From contig NC_010546.1 in NCBI RefSeq assembly GCF_000017845.1, positions 3,480,001 through 3,512,000 of the forward strand: a DNA stretch of 32,000 nt. Reading direction: 5' to 3'. Origin of the DNA: Crocosphaera subtropica ATCC 51142 (GTDB lineage: Bacteria > Cyanobacteriota > Cyanobacteriia > Cyanobacteriales > Microcystaceae). Below are positions 20,325 to 32,000 of this stretch, in pieces. Every line of letters starts with the position of its first letter. Within the stretch, counting starts at the first letter, position 1. The position numbers and the translations under genes are program-made. Under the pieces are notes generated by a model. The model saw only the letters and a list, made by a program, of their open reading frames with translations, ran no database searches and had not been told where the DNA came from.

Positions 20325-21308
20325 ATGTCTTTAATTCCCATTCCTCCTTCCTGGACTATTTCGGAAAATAAAATCACTCCTGAAACCATTTATTTTAACC
20401 GTCGTCGCCTCTTAAAAGGGATGATCGGGGCAAGTATCGCCAGCAGTTTAATTCCCCTTTCAGGATGTCAAAAATCAGCCTCTCAAACCGCATTAGAAGC
20501 AACTTTACAAAAACCTAAAATTCCAGGGGTTAAAACTTCTCCTGAATTTAGTCAAGTGGATCGTCCCATGACCAAAGAAATTTTAGCCGGACAATATAAC
20601 AATTTTTATGAATTTGGAGGAAACAAAAAAATATGGTTAAATGCCCAAAATTTACCTACAGAAAATTGGAAAGTAGAAGTTACTGGATTAGTCAATAATC
20701 CCAAAACTTATGACATCGATGATTTAAAAAAGAAATTCCCTTTAGAAGAAAGAATTTATCGTTTTCGTTGTGTTGAAGCTTGGTCGATGGTCTTACCTTG
20801 GGTTGGGTTTCCTATGAAAGCATTAATGGCAGCAGTCGAACCTAAAAGCGACGCAAAATATGTTCGTTTTACCTCTTTTTACGATAAAGATATTACCACT
20901 GGTCCCAGTTTTCACCTTGGTTATTTACCCTGGCCTTATCAAGAAGGATTAAGAATTGAAGAAATGGCCAACGAGTTAGCCTTTTTTGCTGTGGGAATTT
21001 ATGGCCATGATTTACCGAAACAACATGGCGCACCTTTACGAATGGTTATTCCTTGGAAATATGGATTTAAAGGCGCAAAATCCATTGTCAAAATTGAATT
21101 TTTAAAAGAACAACCCGCAACTTATTGGAACACTATCGACCCCAACGAATACGATTTTGAAGCCAATGTTAACCCTAACAAACCCCATCCTCGTTGGTCC
21201 CAAGCAACAGAAAAATTTATTAGTACAGGACCTGGATTATCTTGGGAAATAAAAGAGACATTACCTTACAATGGTTATGGGGAATATGTCGCTAGTTTAT
21301 ATTCGTAA
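20325..21308 (+). CDS. msrP: Protein-methionine-sulfoxide reductase catalytic subunit MsrP (YedY-type molybdopterin oxidoreductase)
   Basis: A Tat signal is present (NRRRLLKGMIGAS). YedY-like motifs are YNNFYEFG, YRFRCVEAWSMV.PW.GF and GAPLRMVIPWKYGFK. Confidence 0.8.
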   Translation: MSLIPIPPSWTISENKITPETIYFNRRRLLKGMIGASIASSLIPLSGCQKSASQTALEATLQKPKIPGVKTSPEFSQVDRPMTKEILAGQYNNFYEFGGNKKIWLNAQNLPTENWKVEVTGLVNNPKTYDIDDLKKKFPLEERIYRFRCVEAWSMVLPWVGFPMKALMAAVEPKSDAKYVRFTSFYDKDITTGPSFHLGYLPWPYQEGLRIEEMANELAFFAVGIYGHDLPKQHGAPLRMVIPWKYGFKGAKSIVKIEFLKEQPATYWNTIDPNEYDFEANVNPNKPHPRWSQATEKFISTGPGLSWEIKETLPYNGYGEYVASLYS

Positions 21309-21588: not shown

Positions 21589-23212
21589 CTAAATAACACT
21601 ACTTAAAAAATTAACTTTCCATAATTCTAGATGATCATCTCTAAATACCCTAGTAACTTCAGCGTTTTCTAATTGTTCTAAGGTTTCTTTTCCTTGATTT
21701 GTAACCGTTAATAAAAAAACATTTTGAAACTCTTGAGATAGTTGATAATTATAAGTATCTGAGAATAATTGTAACTTAACATTAGAATCAAGTAAATAAC
21801 TTAATGCCATAATATTACCAGGATTATAACTTTTATAATTACCGATTAATAAAGAGGAATTACTCTGATTAATAATTTGGGCTACTTTGGGTAAGCTATA
21901 ACTGATTACCTTCGTATAAGAGGTATTTTTTTGTAAATTATTGATGCAAGATAGAAGACTAACTGAAAAAATAATCAGGGTAATTATTGACCAAATTCTA
22001 GTATTAAATATTTGAGGAGATATTAATTGATTGGTTAATAAATAAGCGATACTAACATCAGTAACAATATAAAAAGGAATTAAATAACGAGGAGAGAGAG
22101 AACGAACACCTCCTACAACAATATCTGGAATTAATAAACATAAAATTTGAACAACCATCATAATCATAATGAATAGCCAACATTTTTTAGGGGTATTCTT
22201 AATGAGGAAATAGAGAGAATACAAGACTAAAACTAAATAAATGATAATGACAAAATTAGTAATATTACTATTGAATTTTAAATCGAAGTCTACAAAAATG
22301 CGACTGATATTAAACCCCCAATATTTTAATAAGTATATAGCTGAAAAATGAAACTGTTTTGTCCAACTGGTGATTTGTTGATATCTTTCATAATTGGCAA
22401 TAAAAACTCCAATCCAAGGAGTAAATAAAATGACAGAAATTATCAAAGAAATACTATGAAAAATAAAAACTTTTGTTAATCTAAATCGAGTCAATAAAAC
22501 AGTATAAGCTATTTGAGCTATTACCACAAATAAAGTAAATAAAGAAGTATAAAAACTTAGGGTGATTAAAAGTGTATAAATGATCCACATTAAATAAGAT
22601 TTAGATATGCTGATATTTTGAGACTGTGTTAACTCAATACACTTTAATAAAGCAGCACTGGATAAAGTAATTAAAACTGTCCATAAAGCATATTCTCTAG
22701 CTTCTTGAGCATAAAGAATATAAAAAGGAGAAATGGCAATTAATCCTAGGGAAATACCACTTACAATATGTTGTTTAAATAATTGCCAACTTAACCAATA
22801 GATAGCAGGAAAAAATAATAAACTAACCCAAACAGAGAAGCTTCTAATCACTGTACGAGAATCTCCGAACAGTTGCCGCCAGGTTCTGACTAAAATATAA
22901 TATAAAGGAGGATGATGGGGATTCTTCGATCGCCAAAACCTTGAGGGTATCTCCTAAAGTTTTGTGAGGATGATTTTGTAAATAATAGTGTAGTTGTTTA
23001 GGTTCAAAAATTTCTCCCGTAAATAAATTATCTTTCCAATCATTCATGAAAAATCCACTAATATGTAAACTGGTAAATATTTCATCATGCCAGTAAACTT
23101 TTTGTTCAATATTGGTAAATCTAAAAAGGATTCCTAATACAACACATATAAATAGGATTAGATACAAAGACAGAAAGAACTTAGAAAATTTGATTGGATA
23201 ATAATTAGGCAT
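21589..23212 (-). pseudogene. Glycosyltransferase family 39 (PMT_2/ArnT-like) membrane protein, interrupted by a frameshift
   Basis: Two adjacent ORFs (23212-22844 and 22851-21589) are halves of one GT39-type protein. The upstream ORF ends ..LKVLAIEES. The other frame, open from 22953 and continuous with the 420-aa ORF, reads NPHHPPLYYILVRTWRQLFGDSRTVIRSFSVWVSLLFFPAIYW, the conserved HPPLYY region. The shift maps to about 22917-22927. Confidence 0.7.
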
Positions 23213-25644: not shown

Positions 25645-26922
25645 ATGGCTCATATTGTTGTTATTGGCGGAGGAATAGGAGGATTACCAACAGCCTATGA
25701 ATTGCGCCATTTACTCTTGTCTTCCCATCAAATTACCCTTGTTTCTAATCAACCAAACTTTACTTTTATTCCGTCTTTACCTTGGGTAGCATTAAACTTA
25801 ATTTCATTGCAACGTATTCAATTAGATATAAAGTCTTTACTACAAAAACGAGGCATTAACTGGCTTTTAGGGACAGTAACTCAGCTTGAGCCAGAAAAAA
25901 AACAGATTTTAGTGGAAAATGAGACAATAACCTATGATTATCTTATCGTTGCTACCGGCGCTGAACTGGCTTTAGATACCATTCCTGGACTTGGACCTGA
26001 GATGGGATATACTCAATCTGTGTGTAATCCTCACCATGCAACGCAAGCGGGTGAAGCTTGGTCTGAATTTTTAGCTGATCCTGGCCCGTTAATTGTGGGG
26101 GCAGTTCCAGGGGCAAGTTGTTTTGGACCAGCCTATGAATTTGCGATGTTAGCAAATGCAACCCTCAGACAGTCTCAACCGTGGAAACAAGTTCCTATTA
26201 CCTTTGTCACCCCAGAACCCTATGTGGGACATTTAGGGATAGGTAGCATGGCTAACTCTCAGGCATTAGTTAGGGAACTCATGGCAAAGCATAACATTAA
26301 TATTCTAGAAAATGCTGCTATTTGTCATATTTCACCTGATACGATTTACTTATCCAACGGTGAAAGGTTGCCCTTTAAGTATGCCATGGTGTTACCTCCC
26401 TTTCGAGGACCTAGTTTCTTGCGAGAAATCCCTGGCTTAACCGATGAACAAGGATTTTTACCGGTTTTGCCCACTGGGCAACATCCTGACTATCCATCTC
26501 TTTACGGTATCGGTGTTGTTGTCAAAATTAACCCCCCAGAAGTCACATCTATCCCCATCGGGGTTCCCAAAACTGGACAAATGACAGAAGCAATGGGAAT
26601 GGCAGCAGCCCATAATATTGCTTGTGAATTAGGAGAACTATCGAGTCATTTGATGATTCCAACCCTAGAAGCCTTATGTTTGGCTGATTTTGGAGAAACA
26701 GGGGTTTGTTTTCTTGCTGCCCCCATTTTACCCGATGCTATCACAGGACAACGCAGAAAAGCGATCGCCTTACAAGGACAATGGGTGAATTGGAGTAAAA
26801 CGGCGTTTGAGCAATTTTTCTTATTAAAAATGCGTTTGGGTTGGTCAGTTCCTTGGTTTGAACGGTTAGCTTTGCAAGGGTTGGGATTATCTTTAGTTAA
26901 ACCCTTACCAAATCAAACCTAG
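25645..26922 (+). CDS. sqr: Sulfide:quinone oxidoreductase, type I (SqrA-like)
   Basis: The FAD-binding motif VVIGGGIGGLPTA is present. Three conserved SQR cysteines sit in context: SVCNPHHA, GASCFGPAYEF and LCLADFGE. GVPKTGQM is also present, and similarity to Aquifex/cyanobacterial SQR as I recall them runs along the whole length. I chose ATG 25645, because the track's start at 25621 is a TTG. Confidence 0.8.
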   Translation: MAHIVVIGGGIGGLPTAYELRHLLLSSHQITLVSNQPNFTFIPSLPWVALNLISLQRIQLDIKSLLQKRGINWLLGTVTQLEPEKKQILVENETITYDYLIVATGAELALDTIPGLGPEMGYTQSVCNPHHATQAGEAWSEFLADPGPLIVGAVPGASCFGPAYEFAMLANATLRQSQPWKQVPITFVTPEPYVGHLGIGSMANSQALVRELMAKHNINILENAAICHISPDTIYLSNGERLPFKYAMVLPPFRGPSFLREIPGLTDEQGFLPVLPTGQHPDYPSLYGIGVVVKINPPEVTSIPIGVPKTGQMTEAMGMAAAHNIACELGELSSHLMIPTLEALCLADFGETGVCFLAAPILPDAITGQRRKAIALQGQWVNWSKTAFEQFFLLKMRLGWSVPWFERLALQGLGLSLVKPLPNQT

Positions 26923-26954
26923 GGTCGAAGGGTCATTCGCCTTTACATTAAGCT

Positions 26955-27542
26955 TTAATCTGGGATAAACACCCCATACATTCCCCTTAAATCTCCTGGT
27001 TTAAAATCATAAGCTAAATCTTGGGGATATTTTTCTTGTACAAATTTGGGTCGAGAATTTTTTGTACCATGACAAGCTAAACAACTCCCTTCCACATTAA
27101 TCCGTCGATAATAAGCGGTTCCTTTTTCTCCCTTCATCGTTTCTCGTTGCCAAAACCCCATTAACTTTGGATTTTCCTCAAATTTTGCTAAGGCTATTTT
27201 TTCGGTTAAATTATTAGGAGAATGGGAAGGATTGCGATATTTTTTAGCAATTTGTCTGACTTGCCAGCCATTTTCTTCACTGAGTTGTTTTGCCCTCATT
27301 CCAACTGGTTGACACACTTGTTTAAAGGTTTCTAAATTAGGGGTTTCTGGCTGATCTTTTAAAGTTGAAGCTAACTGCGATCTCATCCTATCAAGTGCTT
27401 CAATTTCTTGAACCGCTTTCGTTAATTGATTGGGATCAGTTTCAGCATTGGCTACAGTAGTATTCCCTATAATTAGTAACAGTATTAGAGGAAAAACAAT
27501 TAACATCAAACCCAAAAACTTGAAAATCTTTTGATGATACAT
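26955..27542 (-). CDS. Tll0287-like (formerly DUF3365) secreted c-type heme protein
   Basis: A Sec signal peptide ends in VANA|E. There is a single CxxCH heme c site (C154-L-A-C157-H158) in the family-typical context CLACHG...P.....YP.D.A..FKPGDLRG. One further Cys (Cys77, VCQPVG) could supply a Cys axial ligand. Confidence 0.65.
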   Translation of the reverse strand: MYHQKIFKFLGLMLIVFPLILLLIIGNTTVANAETDPNQLTKAVQEIEALDRMRSQLASTLKDQPETPNLETFKQVCQPVGMRAKQLSEENGWQVRQIAKKYRNPSHSPNNLTEKIALAKFEENPKLMGFWQRETMKGEKGTAYYRRINVEGSCLACHGTKNSRPKFVQEKYPQDLAYDFKPGDLRGMYGVFIPD

Positions 27543-27562
27543 AATTCAATTTTCTCCTAACT

Positions 27563-27949
27563 TTATTCTGATTTATTTCCCGTTACATTAGGATAGTCTA
27601 ACTGCCACCATTGACTCATTCCTCCTGTGACATTCAAGACCTGAGTAAAGCCCATTTTTAGTAAAGAATTAGCAGCAATGGGACTTCTATGAGCCGTTAA
27701 ACAAATAACAGCAATAGGTTTATCTTTTGGTAAATCTCGGAACCATTTCGGGACAATAAGCTGCCGTAAATAAGCATTTTGTGCCATTAAAATGCGAGGT
27801 AAACTAAGATTAATGGCTCCCTTGGCATGACCCCTAACATATTCAAATTGTGAACGAACATCAATCAATAAAGGAGAATTGGATAATTGATGAAAGTCTT
27901 GAGGAGAAATATTCGTCACCGATGGTTTTAAAGAAGTTGTTGCAGTCAT
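27563..27949 (-). CDS. Single-domain rhodanese (sulfurtransferase)
   Basis: The rhodanese fold motifs are LIDVRS..EY..GHA.GAINL and the active-site loop C83-L-T-A-H-R-S (CxxxxR[ST]). Confidence 0.75.
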   Translation of the reverse strand: MTATTSLKPSVTNISPQDFHQLSNSPLLIDVRSQFEYVRGHAKGAINLSLPRILMAQNAYLRQLIVPKWFRDLPKDKPIAVICLTAHRSPIAANSLLKMGFTQVLNVTGGMSQWWQLDYPNVTGNKSE

Positions 27950-28010
27950 ATTAATTATCCTTTTTCAAAGTTAACAAAAGTAGTTATTCAGAAGATAGAA
28001 AAATATTTTT

Positions 28011-28031
28011 CCCTCTCCTCCCACCCTCCCC
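28011..28031 (-). other. G-quadruplex-forming motif (G3+N1-7 x4) on the transcribed strand between the petC paralogue and the rhodanese gene
   Basis: The plus strand reads ccctctcctcccaccctcccc. The minus strand therefore reads GGGGaGGGtGGGaggagaGGG, four G3+ tracts with loops of 1, 1 and 6 nt. Confidence 0.5.
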
Positions 28032-28075
28032 ACTCTCACTCAACCGTAATATTGATACACTGATTGAAAATCTAA

Positions 28076-28609
28076 TTAAACCCACCAAGGGCGTTCACCC
28101 GTACGAGGATCGGTTTCAGTCCAAGGAGAAAGCCAAATGGCATCATCGATCACTGCGACATGAACCAGTTTTAAAGGACGGTTAGCGGGCCCCCGAACCA
28201 CGGAACCCTCCGCATCGTAACGGGAACCATGACAAGGACATTGGAATTGTTCGGCCGTCTCATTCCAAGGAAAGGTACAACCTAAATGAGTACAATTATC
28301 GACAATACCCCGTCCATCTAAGGTATTAGCATCAGTGACAATAAGATAAGTGGGTTCTCCAGCTAAACCAGCCACTAATGCACGGGTTTCCGGGGGATTT
28401 TCTAGAATTTGGGAGGCAGGAATGGGATTTCCTAGTTTATCTTTAGCCAATATTGCTCCTCCTTCTCCTGTTTCTTTGGGTGGAGTGAAGAATTTAGCCG
28501 CAGGATAAAGGGCCGATCCGGCAACTACTGCAACCGTCGATCCGGTTAAAAAGTTTAACAGTTGTCGTCTGGATAAGGAAGTTTGATCGAAAGAAAGGTT
28601 ATTGTCCAT
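28076..28609 (-). CDS. petC: Cytochrome b6f-type Rieske [2Fe-2S] protein paralogue (PetC2-like)
   Basis: A Tat-like RRQLLNFL motif and TM anchor are present. The Rieske boxes are CTHLGC and CPCHGS. The C-terminus PWTETDPRTGERPWW is typical of PetC. The position directly downstream of a D1' psbA is the basis for the PetC2 assignment. Confidence 0.8.
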   Translation of the reverse strand: MDNNLSFDQTSLSRRQLLNFLTGSTVAVVAGSALYPAAKFFTPPKETGEGGAILAKDKLGNPIPASQILENPPETRALVAGLAGEPTYLIVTDANTLDGRGIVDNCTHLGCTFPWNETAEQFQCPCHGSRYDAEGSVVRGPANRPLKLVHVAVIDDAIWLSPWTETDPRTGERPWWV

Positions 28610-28641
28610 GATGTTTTTTAAAGTGTAACGATAAGGAATGT

Positions 28642-28668
28642 GACCGATAGAAAAAGTGGCTATCGGTC
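28642..28668 (-). promoter_or_regulatory. Perfect 9-bp stem-loop in the psbA / petC-paralogue intercistronic spacer
   Basis: gaccgatag (28642-28650) pairs with ctatcggtc (28660-28668) around a 9-nt loop. The T-run (tattttt) lies on the plus-strand side only, so in the mRNA sense there is no U-tract after the stem. Confidence 0.55.
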
Positions 28669-28683
28669 TATTTTTAGGCAGAT

Positions 28684-29760
28684 TTAGCTATTTACTGCCA
28701 TAGCAATGGGTTGAGAGTCCCCTAACGCTAGATCAAGAGGAAAATTATGGGCGTTGCGTTCGTGCATCACTTCTATGCCGATGTTGGCACGGTTAATGAC
28801 ATCGGCCCAAGTATTGATCACTCGTCCTTGAGAATCGAGAACTGATCCGTTAAAGTTAAAGCCATTAAGGTTAAAGGCCATGGTGCTGATACCAATGGAA
28901 GCAAACCAAATTCCGATCACTGGCCAGGCAGCTAAGAAGAAGTGCAAGGAACGGGAATTGTTAAAACTGGCATATTGGAAGATTAATCGTCCGAAATAGC
29001 CATGAGCAGCCACTAAATTATAGGTTTCTTCTTCTTGTCCGAATTTATAACCTTGATTGGCTGATTGCGCTTCAGTGGTTTCTCGAATTAAACTAGAAGT
29101 CACTAACGATCCGTGCATGGACGCAAACAACGCACCGCCAAACACACCCGCAACCCCTAATTCATGGAATGGGTGCATCAAAATATTATGTTCGGCTTGG
29201 AAGACAATCATAAAATTGAATGTCCCTGAAATGCCCAACATTAAGCCGTCGGAAAAGCTTCCTTGTCCAATGGGATAAATTAAGAGAACGGCCGTTGCAG
29301 CAGCGACAGGGGCAGAAAAAGCAACAGGAATCCACGGGCGCATCCCTAAACGGTAGCTTAACTCCCATTCTCGCCCCATATAAGCAAAAATTCCAATTAA
29401 AAAGTGCAGCACAATTAATTGATACGGGCCGCCATTGTACAGCCATTCATCTAAGGTAGCTGCTTCCCAAAGGGGATAAAGATGCAAGCCAACGGCGGCA
29501 GAAGTCGGCACAACGGTGGCACTAATGATGTTATTGCCATATAACAAAGACCCAGAAACGGGTTCCCGAATGCCATCGAGATCCACAGGGGGCGCAGCAA
29601 TAAAGGCCAGAATAAAGACGATAGCAGCTACTAACCCCGTAGGAATTAATAAAACCCCAAACCAACCAATATATAGGCGATTTTCAGTGCTAGTAATCCA
29701 ATTACAGAACTTTGACCACAGATTACTCTGTCTGGATGACTCCAACGAAGAAATAGTCAT
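28684..29760 (-). CDS. psbA: Photosystem II D1 protein, D1' (low-oxygen / PsbA2-like) isoform
   Basis: This is a full-length D1 of 358 aa with one extra N-terminal residue. All Mn4CaO5 and TyrZ residues are present in context: Y161, D170, E189, H190, H332, E333, H337, D342 and A344. Isoform-marker substitutions, by alignment to canonical D1, are G80A (NIISA), Q130E (GREWE), C144P (PWIPV), F158L (AVLLIY), M172L/P173M (SDGLMLG) and A at 286 (WFAS). Confidence 0.9.
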
Positions 29761-29818
29761 GGTTTAAATCCTCTTTGAGACAATTGTATTAGAAGGAATT
29801 TCTTAGCTTCTAATTCTA

Positions 29819-29834
29819 CTATACAACAGTATAG
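29819..29834. promoter_or_regulatory. Perfect 6-4-6 palindrome upstream of psbA (candidate operator or 5'UTR stem)
   Basis: The sequence is ctatac-aaca-gtatag at 29819-29834, 59-74 nt upstream of the psbA ATG. A second inverted repeat, tagaag-N11-cttcta, lies at 29790-29812. Confidence 0.4.
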
Positions 29835-29903
29835 CTAATTAGTTATACAATTTAATTAACTTTTGACAAAATGACTAAATAGTTATATTTTAAAAATAGG
29901 AAA

Positions 29904-29935
29904 GCGATCGCTTCAGTCTCAGGATCTGCGATCGC
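29904..29935. repeat. Two HIP1 octamers (GCGATCGC) 24 nt apart; HIP1 recurs throughout the window
   Basis: GCGATCGC occurs at 29904-29911 and 29928-29935. Other copies include 4105-4112, with more seen by eye in many genes. HIP1 over-representation is a cyanobacterial hallmark. Confidence 0.85.
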
Positions 29936-29971
29936 CTAACTTAAACAGAATTTTACTTGAGAGTAACCATA

Positions 29972-30499
29972 ATGAGACATCAACACCGCAGACAGAGACG
30001 TTTTAACCATTCTTCGACGGCAGCAACTTGTTTAGCCGTAATGGCCACAACAAATTTAGTTTCCCAACCCGTTTCCACTAGCAAGATTAACTTAGATGCT
30101 AGAACCCAACAGGCTATGATTGATGCTATCAATGATGAATATTATGCCCGTGCCTTGTATAATGCCATCATTGAGAAGTTTGGCCAGGTTCGTCCTTTTA
30201 TTAACATTGTTCAAGCTGAAAATCGCCATGTACAGCTATGGAATAAGTTATTTAACCAATATGGCTTACCCATTCCTGAAGATGCTTATGCTGGAAAAAT
30301 AGAAGCTCCTGACAGCCTCAAAACAGCCTGTCAGATGGGGGTTGAGGGAGAAATTGCCAATGTGCAAATGTACGATAAATTCCTGGAATTTGTCCAAGAA
30401 AGGGATTTAAGGGCTGCCTTTACACAACTGCGTGAAGTATCTCAAAACAGACACAAAGTCGCCTTTGAACGTTGTCTATCAAGGTTTTCGGACTTCTAA
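29972..30499 (+). CDS. DUF2202 ferritin-like (four-helix-bundle) domain protein with a basic, signal-like N-terminus
   Basis: The pattern is AINDEYYARALY ... FINIVQAENRHVQLWNKLF..YGLPIP ... GVEGEIANVQMYDKFL ... LREVSQNRHKVAFERC. This matches the two-lobed DUF2202 pattern (E...Y / ExxH repeated). I chose ATG 29972, because 29957 is a TTG. Confidence 0.6.
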   Translation: MRHQHRRQRRFNHSSTAATCLAVMATTNLVSQPVSTSKINLDARTQQAMIDAINDEYYARALYNAIIEKFGQVRPFINIVQAENRHVQLWNKLFNQYGLPIPEDAYAGKIEAPDSLKTACQMGVEGEIANVQMYDKFLEFVQERDLRAAFTQLREVSQNRHKVAFERCLSRFSDF

Positions 30500-31030
30500 A
30501 GCTAACCACTCCCACAACACAGTACGACATTGAAGACAAGTTAAATCTTTCAATAACTGATTAATTCCTTCGGAATGGTTGGGATAAGTTCTTCCCAACC
30601 ATTGATCACGGATAATGGTATGAGGGGAAATTTCTGCCACAAAACCATATAGTTTTTGATTGGAAAAAGAGCTATTAATGGCCCAACCTATGTGATTAAG
30701 AGGTGTTAATGTCAGAATATCTGAATGTAAGAGTCCTAGTTCTCGATGGAGTATTTCATAAGCATTAGCATGAAGACTTAACCCTTGAGTGACCCTTCCT
30801 CCAGCAAAATCAAGGGTTACTTCTTTAACCCCAGGACGATAGGACAAATTTGGTAAAATAAGCTGATTATTTTGAATAGTAATAATAATCAAAGAATCAG
30901 CTTTTTCGACTCGCCAATATTCTAAGATTTGTTGACGTTCATCTTCTAATTTTTCCCCGATGAAAGTTAGCCAAGGCGTATGAATTTCAATAAAACGTTC
31001 AAGGGTGTGCCAATGGGATTGCTCTTTCAT
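30479..31030 (-). CDS. Nudix-fold-like protein with a degenerate Nudix box
   Basis: The layout resembles ADP-ribose-pyrophosphatase-type Nudix proteins (W..LE......TPWL ... EYWRVEKADS ... SYRPGV....LDFAGGRV). The box region GGRVTQGLSLHANAYEILHRELGL lacks the catalytic REUxEE glutamates. Confidence 0.4.
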   Translation of the reverse strand: MKEQSHWHTLERFIEIHTPWLTFIGEKLEDERQQILEYWRVEKADSLIIITIQNNQLILPNLSYRPGVKEVTLDFAGGRVTQGLSLHANAYEILHRELGLLHSDILTLTPLNHIGWAINSSFSNQKLYGFVAEISPHTIIRDQWLGRTYPNHSEGINQLLKDLTCLQCRTVLWEWLALEVRKP

Positions 31031-31059
31031 GGTTCAATGATTTAGACTAAAGTATAAGT

Positions 31060-32000
31060 TTAATATCCCTCTCCTTCGTTAACAACCTTGCCCCGAAACA
31101 CCACATAATTATAGATATTATAAAACAACATGACTGGGATCAGAAAGCCGATAAAAATCAGCATAAAGACTAAAGCACTCGGAGCAGCAGCAGCTTGATA
31201 AATAGTGATTTCCGTGGGAATAATATAAGGAAAAACAATTAATCCTAACCCAATAAAACTCAATAAAAAGATAAGGATAGTCCAAATAAAAGGAGTGCTT
31301 TCTTCTCGTTGATTGAGACTTTGTAGAAGTAACCAAACTAACACCATCCCCAGAATCGGGATGGCAGCAAAAATATAAACCAAAGGCGCACTAAATAAGC
31401 GATCTCTGAGGCTTTCATAAAAAATTGGGGTGGTAATCGTAATTAAAATTGCCCCTAATAATGTGGTTATCCCTGCTAATTTAGCGGTTCGATAATGGGT
31501 GTTTTGTAGTTCTCCCTCTGTTTTCAAAATTAAGTAGGTTGAACCGATCAAGACATAACCCTGAATCAAGGTTAATGCCACCAATAGATTGCGCCAGTTT
31601 AACCAATCCCAGGTAGACCCGATAAAATGCCCCATTGCATCGACTTTGATTCCTTGAATCACCGTACCGAGAGCAAATCCTTGGCCTAAAGCGGCCAGAA
31701 AACTACCGATTCCAAAGGCAAAATTCCAAAATATCTTATTATTAGCCTGTTCTCGAAATTCAAAGGCAACTGCCCGAAAAATGAGGCCAAAAATCATGAT
31801 AAAAATGGGAATATACAGAGCATTGAGAATCGTCCCGTAAGCCAAAGGAAACGCCCCGAATAACCCGCCTCCCATCAAGACTAACCAAGTTTCGTTAGCA
31901 TCCCAGATATTCCCTAAACTGGTCATTAACAGGGTTCTTCGTTCTTCGTTAGAACTGGTGAGAGACAAGATACCGACTCCGAGATCAAAGCCATCTAACA
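31060..32000 (-). CDS. cydB: Cytochrome bd quinol oxidase subunit II (CydB); the N-terminus runs off the window
   Basis: The minus-strand frame stays open to base 32000 and there reads ..LDGFDLGVGILSL, the conserved CydB N-terminal motif. Downstream come GGGLFGAFPLAYGT..NALYIP and multiple TM helices. The track's start at 31968 is an internal TTG. Confidence 0.85.
   Translation of the reverse strand, partial: LDGFDLGVGILSLTSSNEERRTLLMTSLGNIWDANETWLVLMGGGLFGAFPLAYGTILNALYIPIFIMIFGLIFRAVAFEFREQANNKIFWNFAFGIGSFLAALGQGFALGTVIQGIKVDAMGHFIGSTWDWLNWRNLLVALTLIQGYVLIGSTYLILKTEGELQNTHYRTAKLAGITTLLGAILITITTPIFYESLRDRLFSAPLVYIFAAIPILGMVLVWLLLQSLNQREESTPFIWTILIFLLSFIGLGLIVFPYIIPTEITIYQAAAAPSALVFMLIFIGFLIPVMLFYNIYNYVVFRGKVVNEGEGY

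What the first reader, a model, noticed from the sequence alone, without database searches (positions are those of the whole stretch)
25645..32000. Candidate low-oxygen / sulfide electron-transport island: sqr, Tll0287-like heme c, rhodanese, alternative Rieske, D1' psbA, DUF2202, Nudix-like, cydB
Within 6.4 kb, nearly every gene points to electron transport under microoxic or sulfidic conditions. They are a type I SQR (sulfide to plastoquinone), an alternative b6f Rieske subunit, a D1' PSII isoform, a His/Cys-type c-heme sensor-like protein, a sulfurtransferase, a ferritin-like di-iron-fold protein and the high-affinity cytochrome bd oxidase. On the minus strand, psbA, the petC paralogue, the rhodanese gene and the Tll0287-like gene are co-oriented with gaps of 74, 126 and 20 nt, so they are plausibly one or two transcripts. 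The D1'/PetC2 linkage is known from Synechocystis, where psbA1 (slr1181) and petC2 (slr1185) lie in one low-O2-induced cluster. I am not aware of a description that joins these with SQR, a rhodanese, a Tll0287 homologue and cyd as one locus. My hypothesis is a dedicated module that re-wires PSII, the PQ pool, b6f and the terminal oxidase, and also handles sulfane sulfur, when O2 is low or sulfide is present (for example at night or in mats).
Basis: partly seen in the sequence, partly recalled or inferred. Interest (0 to 1): 0.75.

Follow-up and report, generated by a model that had tools for sequence, protein, structure and literature searches.

The report
Cyanobacterial low-oxygen/sulfide gene cluster
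This stretch of the Crocosphaera subtropica (Cyanothece) ATCC 51142 chromosome places a sulfide-oxidising enzyme next to alternative photosystem II and cytochrome b6f parts; the grouping is real, recurs in dozens of cyanobacteria and shares a DNA control site, but its core was already published piecemeal.

Summary
The window is Crocosphaera subtropica ATCC 51142, genes cce_3407 to cce_3414. They encode a type I SQR, a Tll0287-like His/Cys c-haem protein, a single-domain rhodanese, PetC2, D1' (psbA2), a DUF2202 ferritin-like protein, a degenerate Nudix-fold protein and cydB (cut by the window end).

The juxtaposition is not chance. In 78 species-level genomes outside the Crocosphaera group, anchored on the Tll0287 homologue, 41 carry the SQR orthologue, 37 PetC2, 20 the rhodanese, 17 an atypical psbA and 17 DUF2202. 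The window's housekeeping neighbours appear in none. All 22 linked psbA genes are group 2 or group 3, never standard D1.

An 18-bp palindrome, TATAACTAATTAGTTATA, lies upstream of psbA2 here. It also lies upstream of sqr, petC2 and D1' genes elsewhere, and next to ArsR-type regulator genes. This argues for one regulon.

The novelty claim is overstated. Low-O2 induction of the psbA-rhodanese-petC2 cluster is published (reported for this strain too, in a paper I could not open), as are sqr-psbA proximity, sqr-petC2 adjacency and the Tll0287-PsbA2/H2S link. I found no description of the conserved sqr-Tll0287-DUF3122 unit, the DUF2202 and Nudix members or the shared operator. The cydAB linkage is weak. 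Function under sulfide remains inferred.

The parts
25645..26922 (+). sqr (cce_3407), type I sulfide:quinone oxidoreductase, 425 aa
   Evidence: Pyr_redox_2 match. Scores 306-309 bits over the full length to A. ferrooxidans and Aquifex type I SQR, against 57 bits to human type II. The three catalytic Cys align. The orthologue (at least 50% identity) lies next to the Tll0287 homologue in 41 of 78 other genomes. Locus tag.
26955..27542 (-). Tll0287-like (DUF3365/sCache_haem) c-type haem protein (cce_3408), with an N-terminal signal peptide
   Evidence: PF11845 E=4e-30. Scores 190 bits to PDB 5B82, with the Cys axial ligand (C77) and C154-x-x-C157-H158 conserved and invariant in 30 homologues. 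The hydrophobic N-terminus ending VANA/E can be read directly from the sequence.
27563..27949 (-). single-domain rhodanese (cce_3409)
   Evidence: PF00581 E=4e-19. A Cys-containing loop, VICLTAHRS, is visible in the translation at the place expected for the active site (no alignment to a reference rhodanese was printed). The orthologue lies in 20 of 78 anchored loci, usually downstream of petC2.
28076..28609 (-). petC2 (cce_3410), alternative Rieske subunit of cytochrome b6f
   Evidence: NF045928 293 bits; TM_PetC plus Rieske domains. Shares 52% identity with M. laminosus PetC1, against 68-76% with cluster-linked PetC of other orders. The genome-scale model lists PetC1 as cce_2958 (next to petA) and PetC2 as cce_3410.
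28684..29760 (-). psbA2 (cce_3411), D1' (group 3) isoform of the PSII D1 protein
   Evidence: TIGR01151 720 bits. The best PDB match is T. elongatus PsbA2 (706 bits, against 686 for PsbA3 and 676 for PsbA1). Carries A80, L158 and A286 plus P144, M173 and E130, with all Mn ligands intact. Literature: psbA2 of this strain is the low-O2-induced D1' (PMC2776144).
29830..29847 (.). proximal copy of the palindromic operator TATAACTAATTAGCTATA, 70-87 nt upstream of the psbA2 start codon
   Evidence: Zero mismatches to the pattern. Conserved in Cyanothece BG0011 and C. chwakensis. The same palindrome is enriched: 46 hits against 0-2 in controls in the intergenic DNA of 80 related loci.
29870..29887 (.). 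distal, weaker copy of the palindrome (TATAACTATTTAGTCATT), 40 nt from the proximal one, inside the psbA2/DUF2202 divergent promoter region
   Evidence: Three mismatches. The block is conserved in C. chwakensis. It abuts a -35-like TTGTCA on the psbA side and overlaps the -10-like hexamer of the plus-strand promoter-like site found (read).
29972..30499 (+). DUF2202 ferritin-like protein (cce_3412), divergent from psbA2
   Evidence: PF09968 22.4-22.5 bits against a cut-off of 22. The family profile hits the MJ0754 structure at 4e-6. Nine of 10 homologues hit DUF2202 and 4 of 10 hit Rubrerythrin. E56, E83, H86, E127 and H161 are invariant. Lies in 17 of 78 anchored loci.
30479..31030 (-). degenerate Nudix-fold protein (cce_3413), 29 nt downstream of cydB
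   Evidence: The window copy has no Pfam hit. The family profile hits Nudix structures 2YVM (2.5e-5) and NudE 1VHG (9e-4). Six of 9 homologues hit PF00293. The Nudix-box Glu residues are largely missing. Lies in 12 of 78 anchored loci.
31060..32000 (-). cydB (cce_3414), cytochrome bd subunit II, 5' end beyond the window
   Evidence: PF02322 273 bits. The reading frame stays open to base 32000. The full gene is 337 aa in locus L001. CydAB1 is cce_3414/3415 in PMC3329150.

Best explanation
This is the Crocosphaera subtropica ATCC 51142 version of a widespread cyanobacterial gene neighbourhood. The neighbourhood equips the photosynthetic and respiratory electron-transport chain for anoxic, sulfide-exposed conditions.

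Proposed working:
- A promoter flanked by two copies of the palindrome TATAAC-N6-GTTATA drives psbA2-petC2-rhodanese-tll0287 on the minus strand. It drives the DUF2202 gene divergently.
- A Cys-containing ArsR/BigR/SqrR-like repressor, encoded elsewhere in this genome, is inferred to occupy the palindrome. It would leave when sulfide or persulfide rises or the cell becomes reduced.
- SQR then oxidises H2S to sulfane sulfur and reduces plastoquinone.
- Plastoquinol is oxidised by b6f carrying PetC2, feeding PSI, or by the sulfide-insensitive, high-affinity cytochrome bd.
- D1' replaces standard D1 in PSII.
- The cytoplasmic rhodanese handles the sulfane sulfur.
- The exported His/Cys haem protein acts on the lumenal or periplasmic side as a redox/sulfur sensor or a sulfane-handling partner of SQR.

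Shown here: the gene identities, the conserved linkage and the shared palindrome. Shown in the literature: low-O2 induction of psbA2, reported for this strain by a review, joint rise of cce_3410-3411 mRNA in this strain under ammonium-limited growth, and microoxic co-induction of the homologous cluster in Acaryochloris. Inferred: the identity of the regulator, co-transcription, any response to sulfide in this strain, and the roles of Tll0287-like, DUF2202 and Nudix-like.
For: **Identities.**

**Source organism and locus tags.**

**Synteny in the Tll0287-anchored scan of GTDB species genomes.**
- The SQR orthologue lies in 43 of 80 loci. In 37 of these it sits upstream of the anchor on the same strand, in 35 of them with a gap of 55-1021 bp.
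- PetC lies in 39 loci, Rhd in 22, PsbA in 19, DUF2202 in 18, Nudix-like in 12 and CydB in 5.
- The control neighbours ThyD and DnaB lie in only 1, a sister species.
- Outside the Crocosphaera group, 43 of 78 loci hold at least 2 of the other seven families and 27 hold at least 3. ThyD and DnaB are in 0 of 78.

**Atypical psbA only.** All 22 psbA genes in these loci are group 3 (10) or group 2 (12), with no standard D1.

**Other recurrent neighbours fit sulfur or anoxia.** These are an ArsR-type regulator, DUF302, an MBL-fold protein like persulfide dioxygenase, TauE, further rhodaneses, YgaP/DUF2892, an NrdG-like activase and an ACR3-like transporter.

**D1'-anchored check.** Three of 8 D1' genes have PetC2, plus SQR and/or ArsR, MBL and rhodanese. 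Five of 8 have an ArsR-type regulator gene within about 4.5 kb.

**Operator.**
- 46 hits in 170 kb of intergenic DNA, against 0-2 in dinucleotide shuffles and 0-2 for permuted palindromes.
- It lies directly upstream of 36% of SQR, 21% of PetC and 19% of PsbA genes, against 2% of other genes.
- It lies about 50-390 nt upstream of D1' (mostly 50-100 nt) in 6 of 8 independent loci, four of them only at 4 mismatches.
- In an unbiased metagenome scan for the exact palindrome, 5 of 80 loci carry a homologous ArsR gene. In four the gene starts 27-39 nt from the palindrome; in the fifth the palindrome lies between arsR and a rhodanese/MBL run.

**Expression.**
- cce_3410-3411 are co-upregulated in N2-fixing chemostats.
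- The cce_3411 protein is 8.7-fold higher in the dark than in the light with nitrate.
- The Acaryochloris psbA1/rhodanese/petC/AM1_0451 genes rise 6- to 90-fold under microoxia.
Against: - No experiment links any gene of this locus in this strain to sulfide.
- In the window sqr is convergent with, not co-transcribed with, the psbA2 unit. It has only 46 nt of upstream spacer and no palindrome.
- No ArsR-type gene lies in the 32-kb window.
- The presence of the palindrome does not correlate strongly with an ArsR gene in the same locus: 15 loci have both, against about 12 expected.
- Neither cydB nor the Nudix-like gene is found in the fetched flanks of either sister species. DUF2202 is also missing from C. 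chwakensis.
- ChlR, not an ArsR-type protein, is the published activator of Synechocystis psbA1.
- The Tll0287 haem potential of about -255 mV is too low for a simple electron acceptor downstream of SQR.
- The terminator and promoter scans are no better than chance, so operon structure is unproven.
Confidence: 0.65

Rival explanations
1. This is purely a low-oxygen (nitrogen-fixation-related) module. D1', PetC2 and cytochrome bd would serve the nightly respiratory drawdown of O2 in this unicellular diazotroph. SQR, the rhodanese and Tll0287-like would be inherited passengers with no sulfide role in this strain.
For: Published data for this strain concern O2 and N status only. psbA2 is reported as low-O2 induced. 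cce_3410-3411 rise with nif genes under ammonium limitation. The D1' protein peaks in the dark. In the window sqr lacks the palindrome and is not in the psbA2 unit. Some D1' loci sit next to low-O2 tetrapyrrole genes (ho2, a HemN-like gene, a cyclase) rather than sqr.
Against: The sqr orthologue is intact, with all catalytic Cys. It is the commonest partner of the Tll0287 homologue across orders. Neighbouring families elsewhere are sulfur-specific: PDO-like MBL, TauE, DUF302 and rhodaneses. The shared operator sits beside ArsR/BigR-like genes and rhodanese/MBL operons even outside this set. The D1' protein was lower, not higher, in N2-fixing dark cells than in nitrate-grown dark cells (D-/D+ = 0.1).
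Confidence: 0.2
2. This is a sulfide-detoxification cluster only. SQR, the rhodanese and Tll0287-like would remove sulfide and dispose of sulfane sulfur. D1' and PetC2 would be co-located merely because anoxia and sulfide coincide in nature. There would be no dedicated rewired electron-transport chain and no anoxygenic photosynthesis.
For: Some sqr-bearing cyanobacteria tolerate sulfide but do not grow on it (statement in PMC8002359). Islands in other genomes carry export and detoxification genes such as TauE, MBL/PDO-like and ACR3-like. PetC2 keeps the Rieske cluster-binding motifs CTHLGC and CPCHGS; I did not examine residues that tune its redox potential.
Against: The tight, often divergently transcribed PetC2/SQR pairing with the operator between them suggests more than ecological coincidence. 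So does the exclusive association with group 2/3 psbA.
Confidence: 0.12
3. This is a chance juxtaposition of unrelated genes in one strain.
For: The right-hand part (Nudix-like, cydB) is not found next to psbA in either sister species, and DUF2202 is also missing from C. chwakensis. cydB is near the anchor in only 5 of 78 other genomes.
Against: The core linkage recurs in dozens of species-level genomes, while the housekeeping neighbours ThyD and DnaB recur in none. With about 14 kb of flank per locus and an assumed genome size of a few megabases, a single-copy gene would be expected in fewer than one of the 78 loci. A shared operator is present.
Confidence: 0.03

Closest known systems
Synechocystis PCC 6803 low-O2 cluster slr1181-slr1185 (psbA1 ... 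slr1184 rhodanese, slr1185 petC2) and its Acaryochloris counterpart AM1_0448-0451
   Same: It combines a D1'-type psbA, a rhodanese-domain protein and an alternative Rieske subunit in one co-oriented cluster. Microoxic induction is published (PMC5295598; PMC2776144). By my recollection of its abstract, the original study (Summerfield 2008) also examined the ATCC 51142 cluster.
   Different: The descriptions I could read of those clusters mention neither sqr nor a Tll0287 homologue; Acaryochloris has a DUF2892 protein instead. Gene order differs. The window adds SQR, Tll0287-like, DUF2202, Nudix-like and cydAB.
sqr next to group 2/3 psbA genes (Grim and Dick 2016) and type I sqr flanked by petC2 (Thermostichales MAGs, 2024)
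   Same: The same pairwise linkages were noted. sqr types I, II and VI lie within a few genes of low-O2 or rogue psbA in 15 genomes, including four Cyanothece, and linked regulation was suggested (PMC5061849). sqr-petC2 adjacency was linked to hypoxia (PMC11304991).
   Different: Those papers do not mention Tll0287/DUF3365, DUF3122, DUF2202 or the Nudix-like gene. They do not mention a shared operator or cydAB. Neither 'rhodanese' nor 'petC' occurs in the 2016 text.
Tll0287 of Thermosynechococcus elongatus (PDB 5B82)
   Same: The window protein shares the family, the His/Cys axial ligation residues and the CxxCH motif. Tll0287 accumulates when PsbA2 (D1') is the only D1, and was proposed as a microaerobic redox sensor or a cytochrome subunit of an H2S-oxidising system.
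   Different: In T. elongatus the link to PsbA2 is physiological, not positional. A Thermosynechococcus D1' locus shows no island genes. Here the gene is in the psbA2 unit itself. I could not read the 2017 structure paper, so I cannot say whether it already reports the sqr adjacency that I see in 37 genomes.
sqr-arsR operons of Geitlerinema PCC 9228 and the Synechocystis plasmid suoRSCT system; BigR/SqrR persulfide-responsive ArsR repressors of proteobacteria
   Same: An ArsR-family regulator is encoded next to sqr, and DUF302 and transporter genes lie in the same cluster. The regulator family has a Cys in helix 2 and C-terminal Cys residues, and a weak match to the BigR model.
   Different: The window has no arsR, DUF302 or transporter gene. 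The BigR model match (39 bits) is far below its cut-off of 155. The operator proposed here was not found described in the papers I could read.
Flavocytochrome c sulfide dehydrogenase (FccAB)
   Same: It pairs an SQR-related flavoprotein with a c-type cytochrome gene. This is a possible analogy for sqr followed by tll0287-like.
   Different: The window SQR matches FccB only weakly (32-36 bits). Tll0287-like is a Cache/PAS-like single-haem protein with His/Cys ligation and a potential of about -255 mV, not a dihaem electron carrier.

Membership tests
D1' (group 3 PsbA, microaerobic D1) | Substitutions G80A, F158L and T286A relative to standard D1 (Mulo 2009, PMC2776144) | tested here: met
   A80, L158 and A286 are present. 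P144 and M173 also match T. elongatus PsbA2. The best PDB match is the PsbA2 chain 7YQ2.
D1' (group 3 PsbA, microaerobic D1) | Complete Mn4CaO5 ligand set (D170, E189, H332, E333, D342, A344), which distinguishes it from group 1/2 rogue D1 | tested here: met
   All six are present. The group 2 genes in other loci lack them (same call).
D1' (group 3 PsbA, microaerobic D1) | Induced by low oxygen | not testable with these tools
   Literature only. psbA2 of Cyanothece 51142 is reported as low-O2 induced.
PetC2 (alternative b6f Rieske) | Full-length PetC with an N-terminal TM anchor and the Rieske motifs CTHLGC and CPCHGS | tested here: met
   TM_PetC plus Rieske domains; NF045928 293 bits. The motifs are visible in the alignment.
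PetC2 (alternative b6f Rieske) | A paralogue distinct from the petC1-petA copy, forming its own orthologous group | tested here: met
   It shares 52% identity with a PetC1, against 68-76% with 39 cluster-linked PetC of other orders. The gene downstream here is the rhodanese, not petA. PetC1 is cce_2958 in PMC3329150. No tree was built.
Type I SQR | FAD-binding fold with three conserved Cys (A. ferrooxidans C128, C160, C356) and a C-terminal membrane-binding region | tested here: met
   The full-length alignment covers residues 2-419, and all three Cys align.
Type I SQR | Closer to type I than to types II to VI | tested here: met
   306-309 bits to the A. ferrooxidans and Aquifex SQRs. By my knowledge of the Marcia 2010 scheme these two are type I, the Acidianus enzyme (98 bits) is type V and the human enzyme (57 bits) is type II. 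No phylogeny with types III, IV and VI was built.
Type I SQR | Sulfide-dependent quinone reduction | not testable with these tools
   No assay. Named sulfide-quinone reductase by the depositor.
Tll0287-like / sCache_haem (PF11845) | CxxCH haem c attachment motif, plus the distal Cys axial ligand of the stand-alone His/Cys type | tested here: met
   C154-L-A-C157-H158 and C77 align with 5B82 and are invariant in 30 homologues.
Tll0287-like / sCache_haem (PF11845) | Extracytoplasmic location (needed for haem c attachment) | tested here: inconclusive
   The N-terminal hydrophobic segment with a VANA/E site can be read from the sequence. No signal-peptide predictor was available.
Rhodanese (sulfurtransferase) | Rhodanese domain with the catalytic Cys loop | tested here: inconclusive
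   PF00581 69 bits. A Cys-containing loop, VICLTAHRS, is visible at about the expected place in the translation. No residue-level alignment to a reference rhodanese was printed, so the catalytic assignment is by eye. Activity and substrate are unknown.
DUF2202 / ferritin-like | Pfam match above the gathering score and four-helix-bundle di-metal ligands (E, ExxH, E, ExxH) | tested here: inconclusive
   22.4 bits against a cut-off of 22. The profile hits MJ0754 at 4e-6. E56, E83-x-x-H86, E127 and H161 are invariant, but the last motif is QxxH. No structure was predicted.
Nudix hydrolase | Nudix box GX5EX7REUXEEXGU with catalytic Glu residues | tested here: not met
   The fold-level relation is supported. 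But the family has xILQRELG in place of REUxEExG, and the window copy also lacks the Gx5E Glu. I therefore call it Nudix-fold, not a Nudix hydrolase.
Cytochrome bd oxidase subunit II (CydB) | Full-length match to PF02322/TIGR00203, adjacent to cydA | tested here: inconclusive
   PF02322 273 bits; TIGR00203 117.7 against a cut-off of 117.3. The gene is cut by the window end and cydA is outside it. cce_3415 is cydA only by PMC3329150.
ArsR/BigR/SqrR-type persulfide-responsive regulon | The regulator gene is present and binds the operator | tested here: not met
   No ArsR-family gene lies in the window. Orthologues exist in sister genomes on other contigs. Binding is untested. Only the palindrome-ArsR adjacency is shown.

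The most novel reading that the evidence does not exclude
The most novel reading is that the so-called low-oxygen D1' and PetC2 genes belong to a pan-cyanobacterial sulfide/persulfide-responsive regulon. The regulon would be defined by the operator TATAAC-N6-GTTATA and a Cys-containing ArsR/SqrR-like repressor. Its conserved core would be the unit sqr-(arsR)-tll0287-DUF3122, transcribed divergently from petC2-rhodanese. On this reading cyanobacteria would carry a dedicated, co-regulated 'sulfidic-mode' electron-transport chain made of SQR, an exported His/Cys haem partner, PetC2-b6f and a modified or non-water-splitting PSII. Part of what has been called low-O2 induction of D1' would then be sulfide signalling.
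Probability: 0.3. Interest if true: 0.7.

Novelty: new variant of a known kind. Interest (0 to 1): 0.5.

Why it matters
[quoted passage not shown] The genetic basis beyond sqr is poorly defined.

This locus lies in a well-studied strain for which a targeted psbA4 deletion mutant has been published. It puts SQR, D1', PetC2, a rhodanese and the enigmatic Tll0287 haem protein within 4.2 kb. The comparative data turn a loose set of pairwise proximities into a defined gene set with a candidate operator and a candidate regulator family. That makes the regulatory link between sulfide, anoxia and PSII/b6f remodelling directly testable. It also gives a functional context to four families of unknown role: Tll0287-like, DUF3122, DUF2202 and the degenerate Nudix-fold protein.

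Tried and rejected
- **Rfam scan of the window:** no RNA family reached its gathering score.
- **tRNA and repeat scans:** no tRNA, integrase or flanking repeats, and G+C is like the rest of the window. This is therefore not a mobile genomic island.
- **Promoter and terminator scans:** counts are no better than shuffles, and no terminator lies in the 74-, 126- and 20-nt gaps. They give no evidence either way on operon structure.
- **ChlR as the regulator:** its published motif TTMCC-N3/4-GGWAA is not what is conserved upstream of psbA2. The conserved GGGATTCC block has the half-sites in the wrong order. I rejected ChlR as the palindrome binder but did not exclude it as a second regulator.
- **Palindrome upstream of sqr in the window:** only one half-site-like stretch is present.
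- **Search of the window for the extra island families** (DUF3122, ArsR, DUF302, MBL, TauE, ACR3-like, NrdG-like, YgaP): absent.
- **Primary papers:** Summerfield 2008, Motomura 2017 and Toepel 2008 could not be opened.
- **Proteomics and transcript supplements:** the proteomics supplement is not held. The supplement search of PMC3329150 found cce_3410 and cce_3414 only in the metabolic-model file, so no per-gene transcript values were available.
- **Logan contigs carrying the exact protein:** they add no flank beyond cydB.
- **Not used:** structure prediction and fold search, because sequence profiles already settled the Nudix and ferritin-like assignments.

Full report
**What is there**

Curated profiles confirm the families.
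- sqr lies at 25645-26922 on the plus strand. The ORF tool begins at an upstream TTG, but the gene called in an independent assembly is 425 aa.
- Four co-oriented genes follow on the minus strand: psbA (28684-29760), petC (28076-28609), a rhodanese (27563-27949) and a Tll0287-like protein (26955-27542). From these coordinates the gaps are 74, 126 and 20 nt.
- A DUF2202-like gene (29972-30499, plus) is divergent from psbA.
- A 183-aa ORF (30479-31030, minus) lies 29 nt downstream of cydB (31060 to beyond 32000, minus).
- cydB is cut by the window end. The frame stays open to base 32000 and encodes the usual LDGFDLGVGIL N-terminal region, so the listed TTG start is an artefact. The full protein is 337 aa.

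An exact protein look-up identifies the source as Crocosphaera subtropica (formerly Cyanothece sp.) ATCC 51142, genes cce_3407 to cce_3414.

**Gene-by-gene checks**

*D1.* The protein has A80, L158 and A286, the published D1' signature. It also has P144, M173 and E130, and all six Mn-cluster ligands are present. Its best match among solved structures is the PsbA2 chain of T. elongatus, ahead of PsbA3 and PsbA1.

*Rieske protein.* It has the PetC membrane anchor and both cluster-binding motifs. It shares only 52% identity with a housekeeping PetC1, but 68-76% with 39 cluster-linked PetC proteins of other orders. A genome-scale model of this strain lists it as PetC2 and lists cce_2958, next to petA, as PetC1.

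*SQR.* It aligns end to end with the A. ferrooxidans and Aquifex SQRs, which I take to be type I, at 306-309 bits. It scores 98 bits to the Acidianus enzyme and 57 bits to the human enzyme. All three catalytic cysteines are conserved.

*Haem protein.* It matches Tll0287 (5B82) at 190 bits and keeps the Cys axial ligand and the CxxCH motif. Its N-terminus reads as a cleavable signal peptide, which fits c-type haem attachment outside the cytoplasm. This last point is an inference from the sequence.

*DUF2202.* The assignment is borderline for the window copy alone. A family profile supports it by hitting the ferritin-like MJ0754 structure, and five candidate metal ligands are invariant.

*The 183-aa ORF.* It is Nudix-fold at the profile level, but its Nudix box has lost most catalytic glutamates. 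I therefore do not file it as a Nudix hydrolase.

**Is the grouping more than chance?**

I aligned 30 Tll0287 homologues and used the alignment to scan one genome per GTDB species. I kept the best 80 of 159 loci and searched them with the window's proteins.
- Orthologues of SQR lie within the fetched flanks in 43 loci, PetC2 in 39, the rhodanese in 22, psbA in 19, DUF2202 in 18, the Nudix-like gene in 12 and cydB in 5.
- The window's housekeeping neighbours ThyD and DnaB recur only in a sister species.
- Leaving out the two Crocosphaera-group genomes, 57 of 78 loci hold at least one of the seven other families. 43 hold at least two, 27 at least three and 16 at least four. ThyD and DnaB are in none.

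The genomes span Chroococcales, Pleurocapsales, Nostocales, Oscillatoriales, Coleofasciculales, Leptolyngbyales, Nodosilineales, Elainellales, Thermosynechococcaceae, Spirulinales and others (record titles; the order names are my own reading of them).

The usual layout differs from the window's. sqr, often followed by an arsR-type gene, lies upstream of the tll0287 homologue on the same strand in 37 loci, in 35 of them with a gap of 55-1021 bp. In many of these, petC2-(NifX-like)-rhodanese-(ACR3-like) is transcribed divergently from sqr. Crocosphaera has a compacted, rearranged version.

Every one of the 22 psbA genes in these loci is atypical. Ten are group 3 (D1') and twelve are group 2 (rogue, with the Mn ligands replaced). 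None is a standard D1.

**The wider island**

Clustering all ORFs of the loci showed further recurrent families that the window lacks:

| Family | Loci |
|---|---|
| DUF3122, directly downstream of the tll0287 homologue | 58 |
| ArsR/SmtB-type regulator | 31 |
| ACR3/SBF-like transporter | 20 |
| NrdG-like radical-SAM activase | 17 |
| DUF302 | 16 |
| MBL-fold protein resembling persulfide dioxygenase | 15 |
| TauE | 14 |
| Exported rhodanese | 13 |
| NifX-like protein | 11 |
| YgaP/DUF2892 | 9 |

**View from D1'**

Of the 100 full-length top homologues of the window's D1, 88 carry the D1' signature. I looked up the context of eight D1' genes from named genomes.
- Three lie in sulfur islands: Gloeothece citriformis PCC 7424, Nostoc PCC 7524 and assembly GCA_000331305. 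These carry PetC2 plus SQR and/or ArsR, MBL and rhodaneses.
- Two Nostocales genes are flanked by an NMO-family gene and the same ArsR-type gene.
- One lies next to DUF3122.
- Two (a Thermosynechococcus contig and Oscillatoria FACHB-1406) show nothing related.

The linkage is therefore frequent but not obligatory.

**A shared operator (not part of the original finding)**

The psbA2 upstream region is conserved among three Crocosphaera-group genomes around an 18-bp palindrome, TATAACTAATTAGYTATA.
- In the window it lies at 29830-29847, with a weaker copy at 29870-29887 and nowhere else in 32 kb.
- Read on the psbA strand, the distal copy abuts a -35-like TTGTCA. The proximal copy begins with a -10-like TATAAC, 16 nt further on.
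- On the other strand the promoter-like site for the DUF2202 gene overlaps the distal copy.
- This is the arrangement expected of a repressor-controlled divergent promoter. That reading is an inference.

Across the 80 loci the palindrome (up to 3 mismatches) occurs 50 times, 46 of them intergenic. Dinucleotide shuffles of the intergenic DNA give 0-2 hits, and 30 permuted palindromes of the same composition also give 0-2.

It lies directly upstream of 36% of sqr, 38% of DUF302, 21% of petC2 and 19% of psbA genes, against 2% of unrelated genes.

In the D1'-anchored loci, related sites lie about 50-390 nt upstream of D1', mostly 50-100 nt, in six of eight cases. Two of these have only 2 mismatches; the other four match only at 4 mismatches, a threshold I did not calibrate against shuffles. 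Related sites also lie upstream of arsR in two loci.

An unbiased scan of metagenome contigs for the exact palindrome returned mostly unrelated DNA, as expected for an AT-rich 18-mer. Even so, 5 of the 80 loci kept carry a homologue of the island's ArsR-type gene. In four the gene starts 27-39 nt from the palindrome. In the fifth the palindrome lies between arsR and a run of rhodanese, MBL and rhodanese genes.

The sqr-adjacent and D1'-adjacent ArsR proteins form one family. They have a conserved Cys in helix 2 and a C-terminal LCxLVC motif. Orthologues exist in the two sister Crocosphaera genomes on other contigs. The palindrome differs from the published ChlR motif.

I infer that this ArsR/BigR/SqrR-like family binds the palindrome and ties sqr, petC2 and atypical psbA genes into one regulon. 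Binding has not been tested. The window itself contains no such regulator.

**What was already known**
- Mulo et al. 2009 list psbA2 of Cyanothece 51142 as a D1' gene induced by low O2, citing Summerfield et al. 2008. I could not open the primary paper. By my recollection of its abstract, it reports the psbA gene as part of an upregulated cluster with an alternative Rieske protein in two of three strains.
- Hernandez-Prieto et al. 2016 show microoxic co-induction of psbA1, a rhodanese-domain gene, petC and a neighbour in Acaryochloris. They also describe the Synechocystis slr1181-slr1185 cluster, including the slr1184 rhodanese.
- Grim and Dick 2016 report sqr within a few genes of group 2/3 psbA in 15 genomes, including four Cyanothece, and suggest linked regulation.
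- A 2024 study notes type I sqr flanked by petC2.
- Tll0287 was found to accumulate with PsbA2-PSII and was proposed as a microaerobic redox sensor or a cytochrome subunit of an H2S-oxidising system.
- In this strain, cce_3410-3411 mRNAs rise together under N2-fixing chemostat growth. The D1' protein is 8.7-fold higher in the dark than in the light with nitrate.

Full-text searches found no paper that joins DUF3365/Tll0287 or DUF3122 with sqr in cyanobacteria, and none that describes the operator. The library lacks many subscription papers, so this absence is weak evidence.

**Mechanism, with what is shown and what is inferred**

Shown: the identities, the conserved linkage and the shared palindrome. 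Also shown, in the literature, are low-O2 induction of psbA2, reported for this strain by a review, joint upregulation of cce_3410-3411 in this strain under ammonium-limited growth, and microoxic co-induction of the homologous cluster in Acaryochloris.

Inferred:
- Under anoxia or sulfide a Cys-based ArsR-type repressor leaves the palindromes. psbA2-petC2-rhd-tll0287 and cce_3412 are then transcribed.
- SQR feeds electrons from H2S into plastoquinone.
- PetC2-b6f passes them to PSI. Alternatively cytochrome bd oxidises plastoquinol. From general knowledge of E. coli bd oxidase, it is sulfide-insensitive and has high O2 affinity.
- D1' modifies PSII.
- The rhodanese moves the sulfane sulfur.
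- The exported His/Cys haem protein senses or handles reduced sulfur on the outer face. From general knowledge, this ligation is a hallmark of SoxAX, TsdA and DsrJ. Its low potential argues against a plain electron-carrier role.
- The DUF2202 and Nudix-fold proteins have no assignable role.

**Weak points**
- In the window sqr is convergent with tll0287. It has a 46-nt upstream spacer without the palindrome, so its co-regulation here is doubtful.
- The cydAB and Nudix-like genes are not found next to psbA in either sister genome, and DUF2202 is also missing from C. chwakensis. cydB is linked in only 5 of 78 others. With about 14 kb of flank per locus and a genome of a few megabases, that is above my rough expectation of well under one locus, but it is a loose association.
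- Promoter and terminator scans are uninformative.
- Nothing here tests sulfide physiology.

**Verdict**

This is a real, conserved and biologically coherent cluster. Its core is already in the literature, reportedly for this very strain as well. The additions from this analysis are the breadth of the synteny, the conserved sqr-tll0287-DUF3122 unit, the exclusive tie to group 2/3 psbA and the candidate operator/ArsR regulon. They make it a useful, testable extension rather than a new kind of system.

Noticed in passing
window 29830-29847 and 29870-29887; also L005 7685-7702, L014 7717-7734, L090 9918-9935, L092 9712-9729 and others: An 18-bp palindrome, TATAACTAATTAGTTATA, lies upstream of psbA2. 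It recurs upstream of sqr, petC2/DUF302, D1' and arsR genes in many cyanobacteria, with 46 intergenic hits against 0-2 in controls. It also lies next to ArsR-family genes in unrelated metagenome contigs. It is a candidate operator of a BigR/SqrR-like repressor and is distinct from the ChlR motif.
   Followed up: yes
L007-L084 (for example L032 10650-11189), immediately downstream of the Tll0287 homologue: A DUF3122 protein of about 179 aa with an N-terminal hydrophobic segment follows the tll0287 homologue in 58 of 80 loci. It also lies next to a D1' gene in Allocoleopsis (L088). It is absent from the window. Its function is unknown, and it is the most faithful partner of Tll0287.
   Followed up: partly
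loci L005-L084, psbA genes: All 22 psbA genes within 10 kb of a Tll0287 homologue are group 3 (10) or group 2 rogue D1 (12). None is a standard group 4 D1. Two loci (L043, L048) carry one of each.
   Followed up: yes
L087 11144-11506, L089 11160-11522, L090 11153-11515: In Nostocales the D1' gene is flanked by an NMO-family (nitronate monooxygenase-like) gene upstream. A 120-aa ArsR-type gene lies convergently downstream. This ArsR belongs to the same family as the sqr-adjacent ArsR of other orders.
   Followed up: partly
one search hit list (P0321, P0302, P0310, P0317, P0323): The island-type ArsR family is retained in the reduced genomes of UCYN-A (Atelocyanobacterium thalassa) and the Rhopalodia/Epithemia spheroid-body endosymbionts. 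UCYN-A is reported to lack PSII (title of Zehr et al. 2008, seen). The regulator may therefore control more than the photosynthetic genes.
   Followed up: no
window 30479-31030 and homologues (alignment A2): The Nudix-fold family has lost most Nudix-box glutamates. It has invariant NSSFSNQ and C-terminal CLQCR motifs. It may be a non-hydrolytic or redox-sensitive binding protein.
   Followed up: partly
window 30479-30499: The 3' ends of the DUF2202 gene (plus strand) and the Nudix-like gene (minus strand) overlap convergently by 21 nt.
   Followed up: no
window 20325-21308 (+): A 327-aa protein with a molybdopterin-binding oxidoreductase domain (PF00174) lies 4.3 kb upstream of sqr. By my recollection this domain belongs to the sulfite oxidase/YedY family. 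It was not among the recurrent families of the related loci and may be unrelated.
   Followed up: no
window 21589-23212 (-): Two overlapping ORFs (420 aa and 122 aa), AT-rich (29% G+C), have no Pfam match. The longer one looks like a polytopic membrane protein. They lie between the molybdoenzyme gene and dnaB.
   Followed up: no
L086 2764-7292 (Gloeothece citriformis PCC 7424): Between petC2-rhodanese and arsR-rhodanese-MBL-rhodanese-psbA(D1'), this genome carries a heterodisulfide-reductase-like set (Fer4/CCG proteins plus a flavoprotein). This points to a larger sulfur-oxidation module attached to D1' in some strains.
   Followed up: no
window 29899-29932: Two HIP1-type GCGATCGC palindromes lie in the psbA2/DUF2202 intergenic region. 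By my recollection these are common cyanobacterial repeats, probably without specific meaning here.
   Followed up: no
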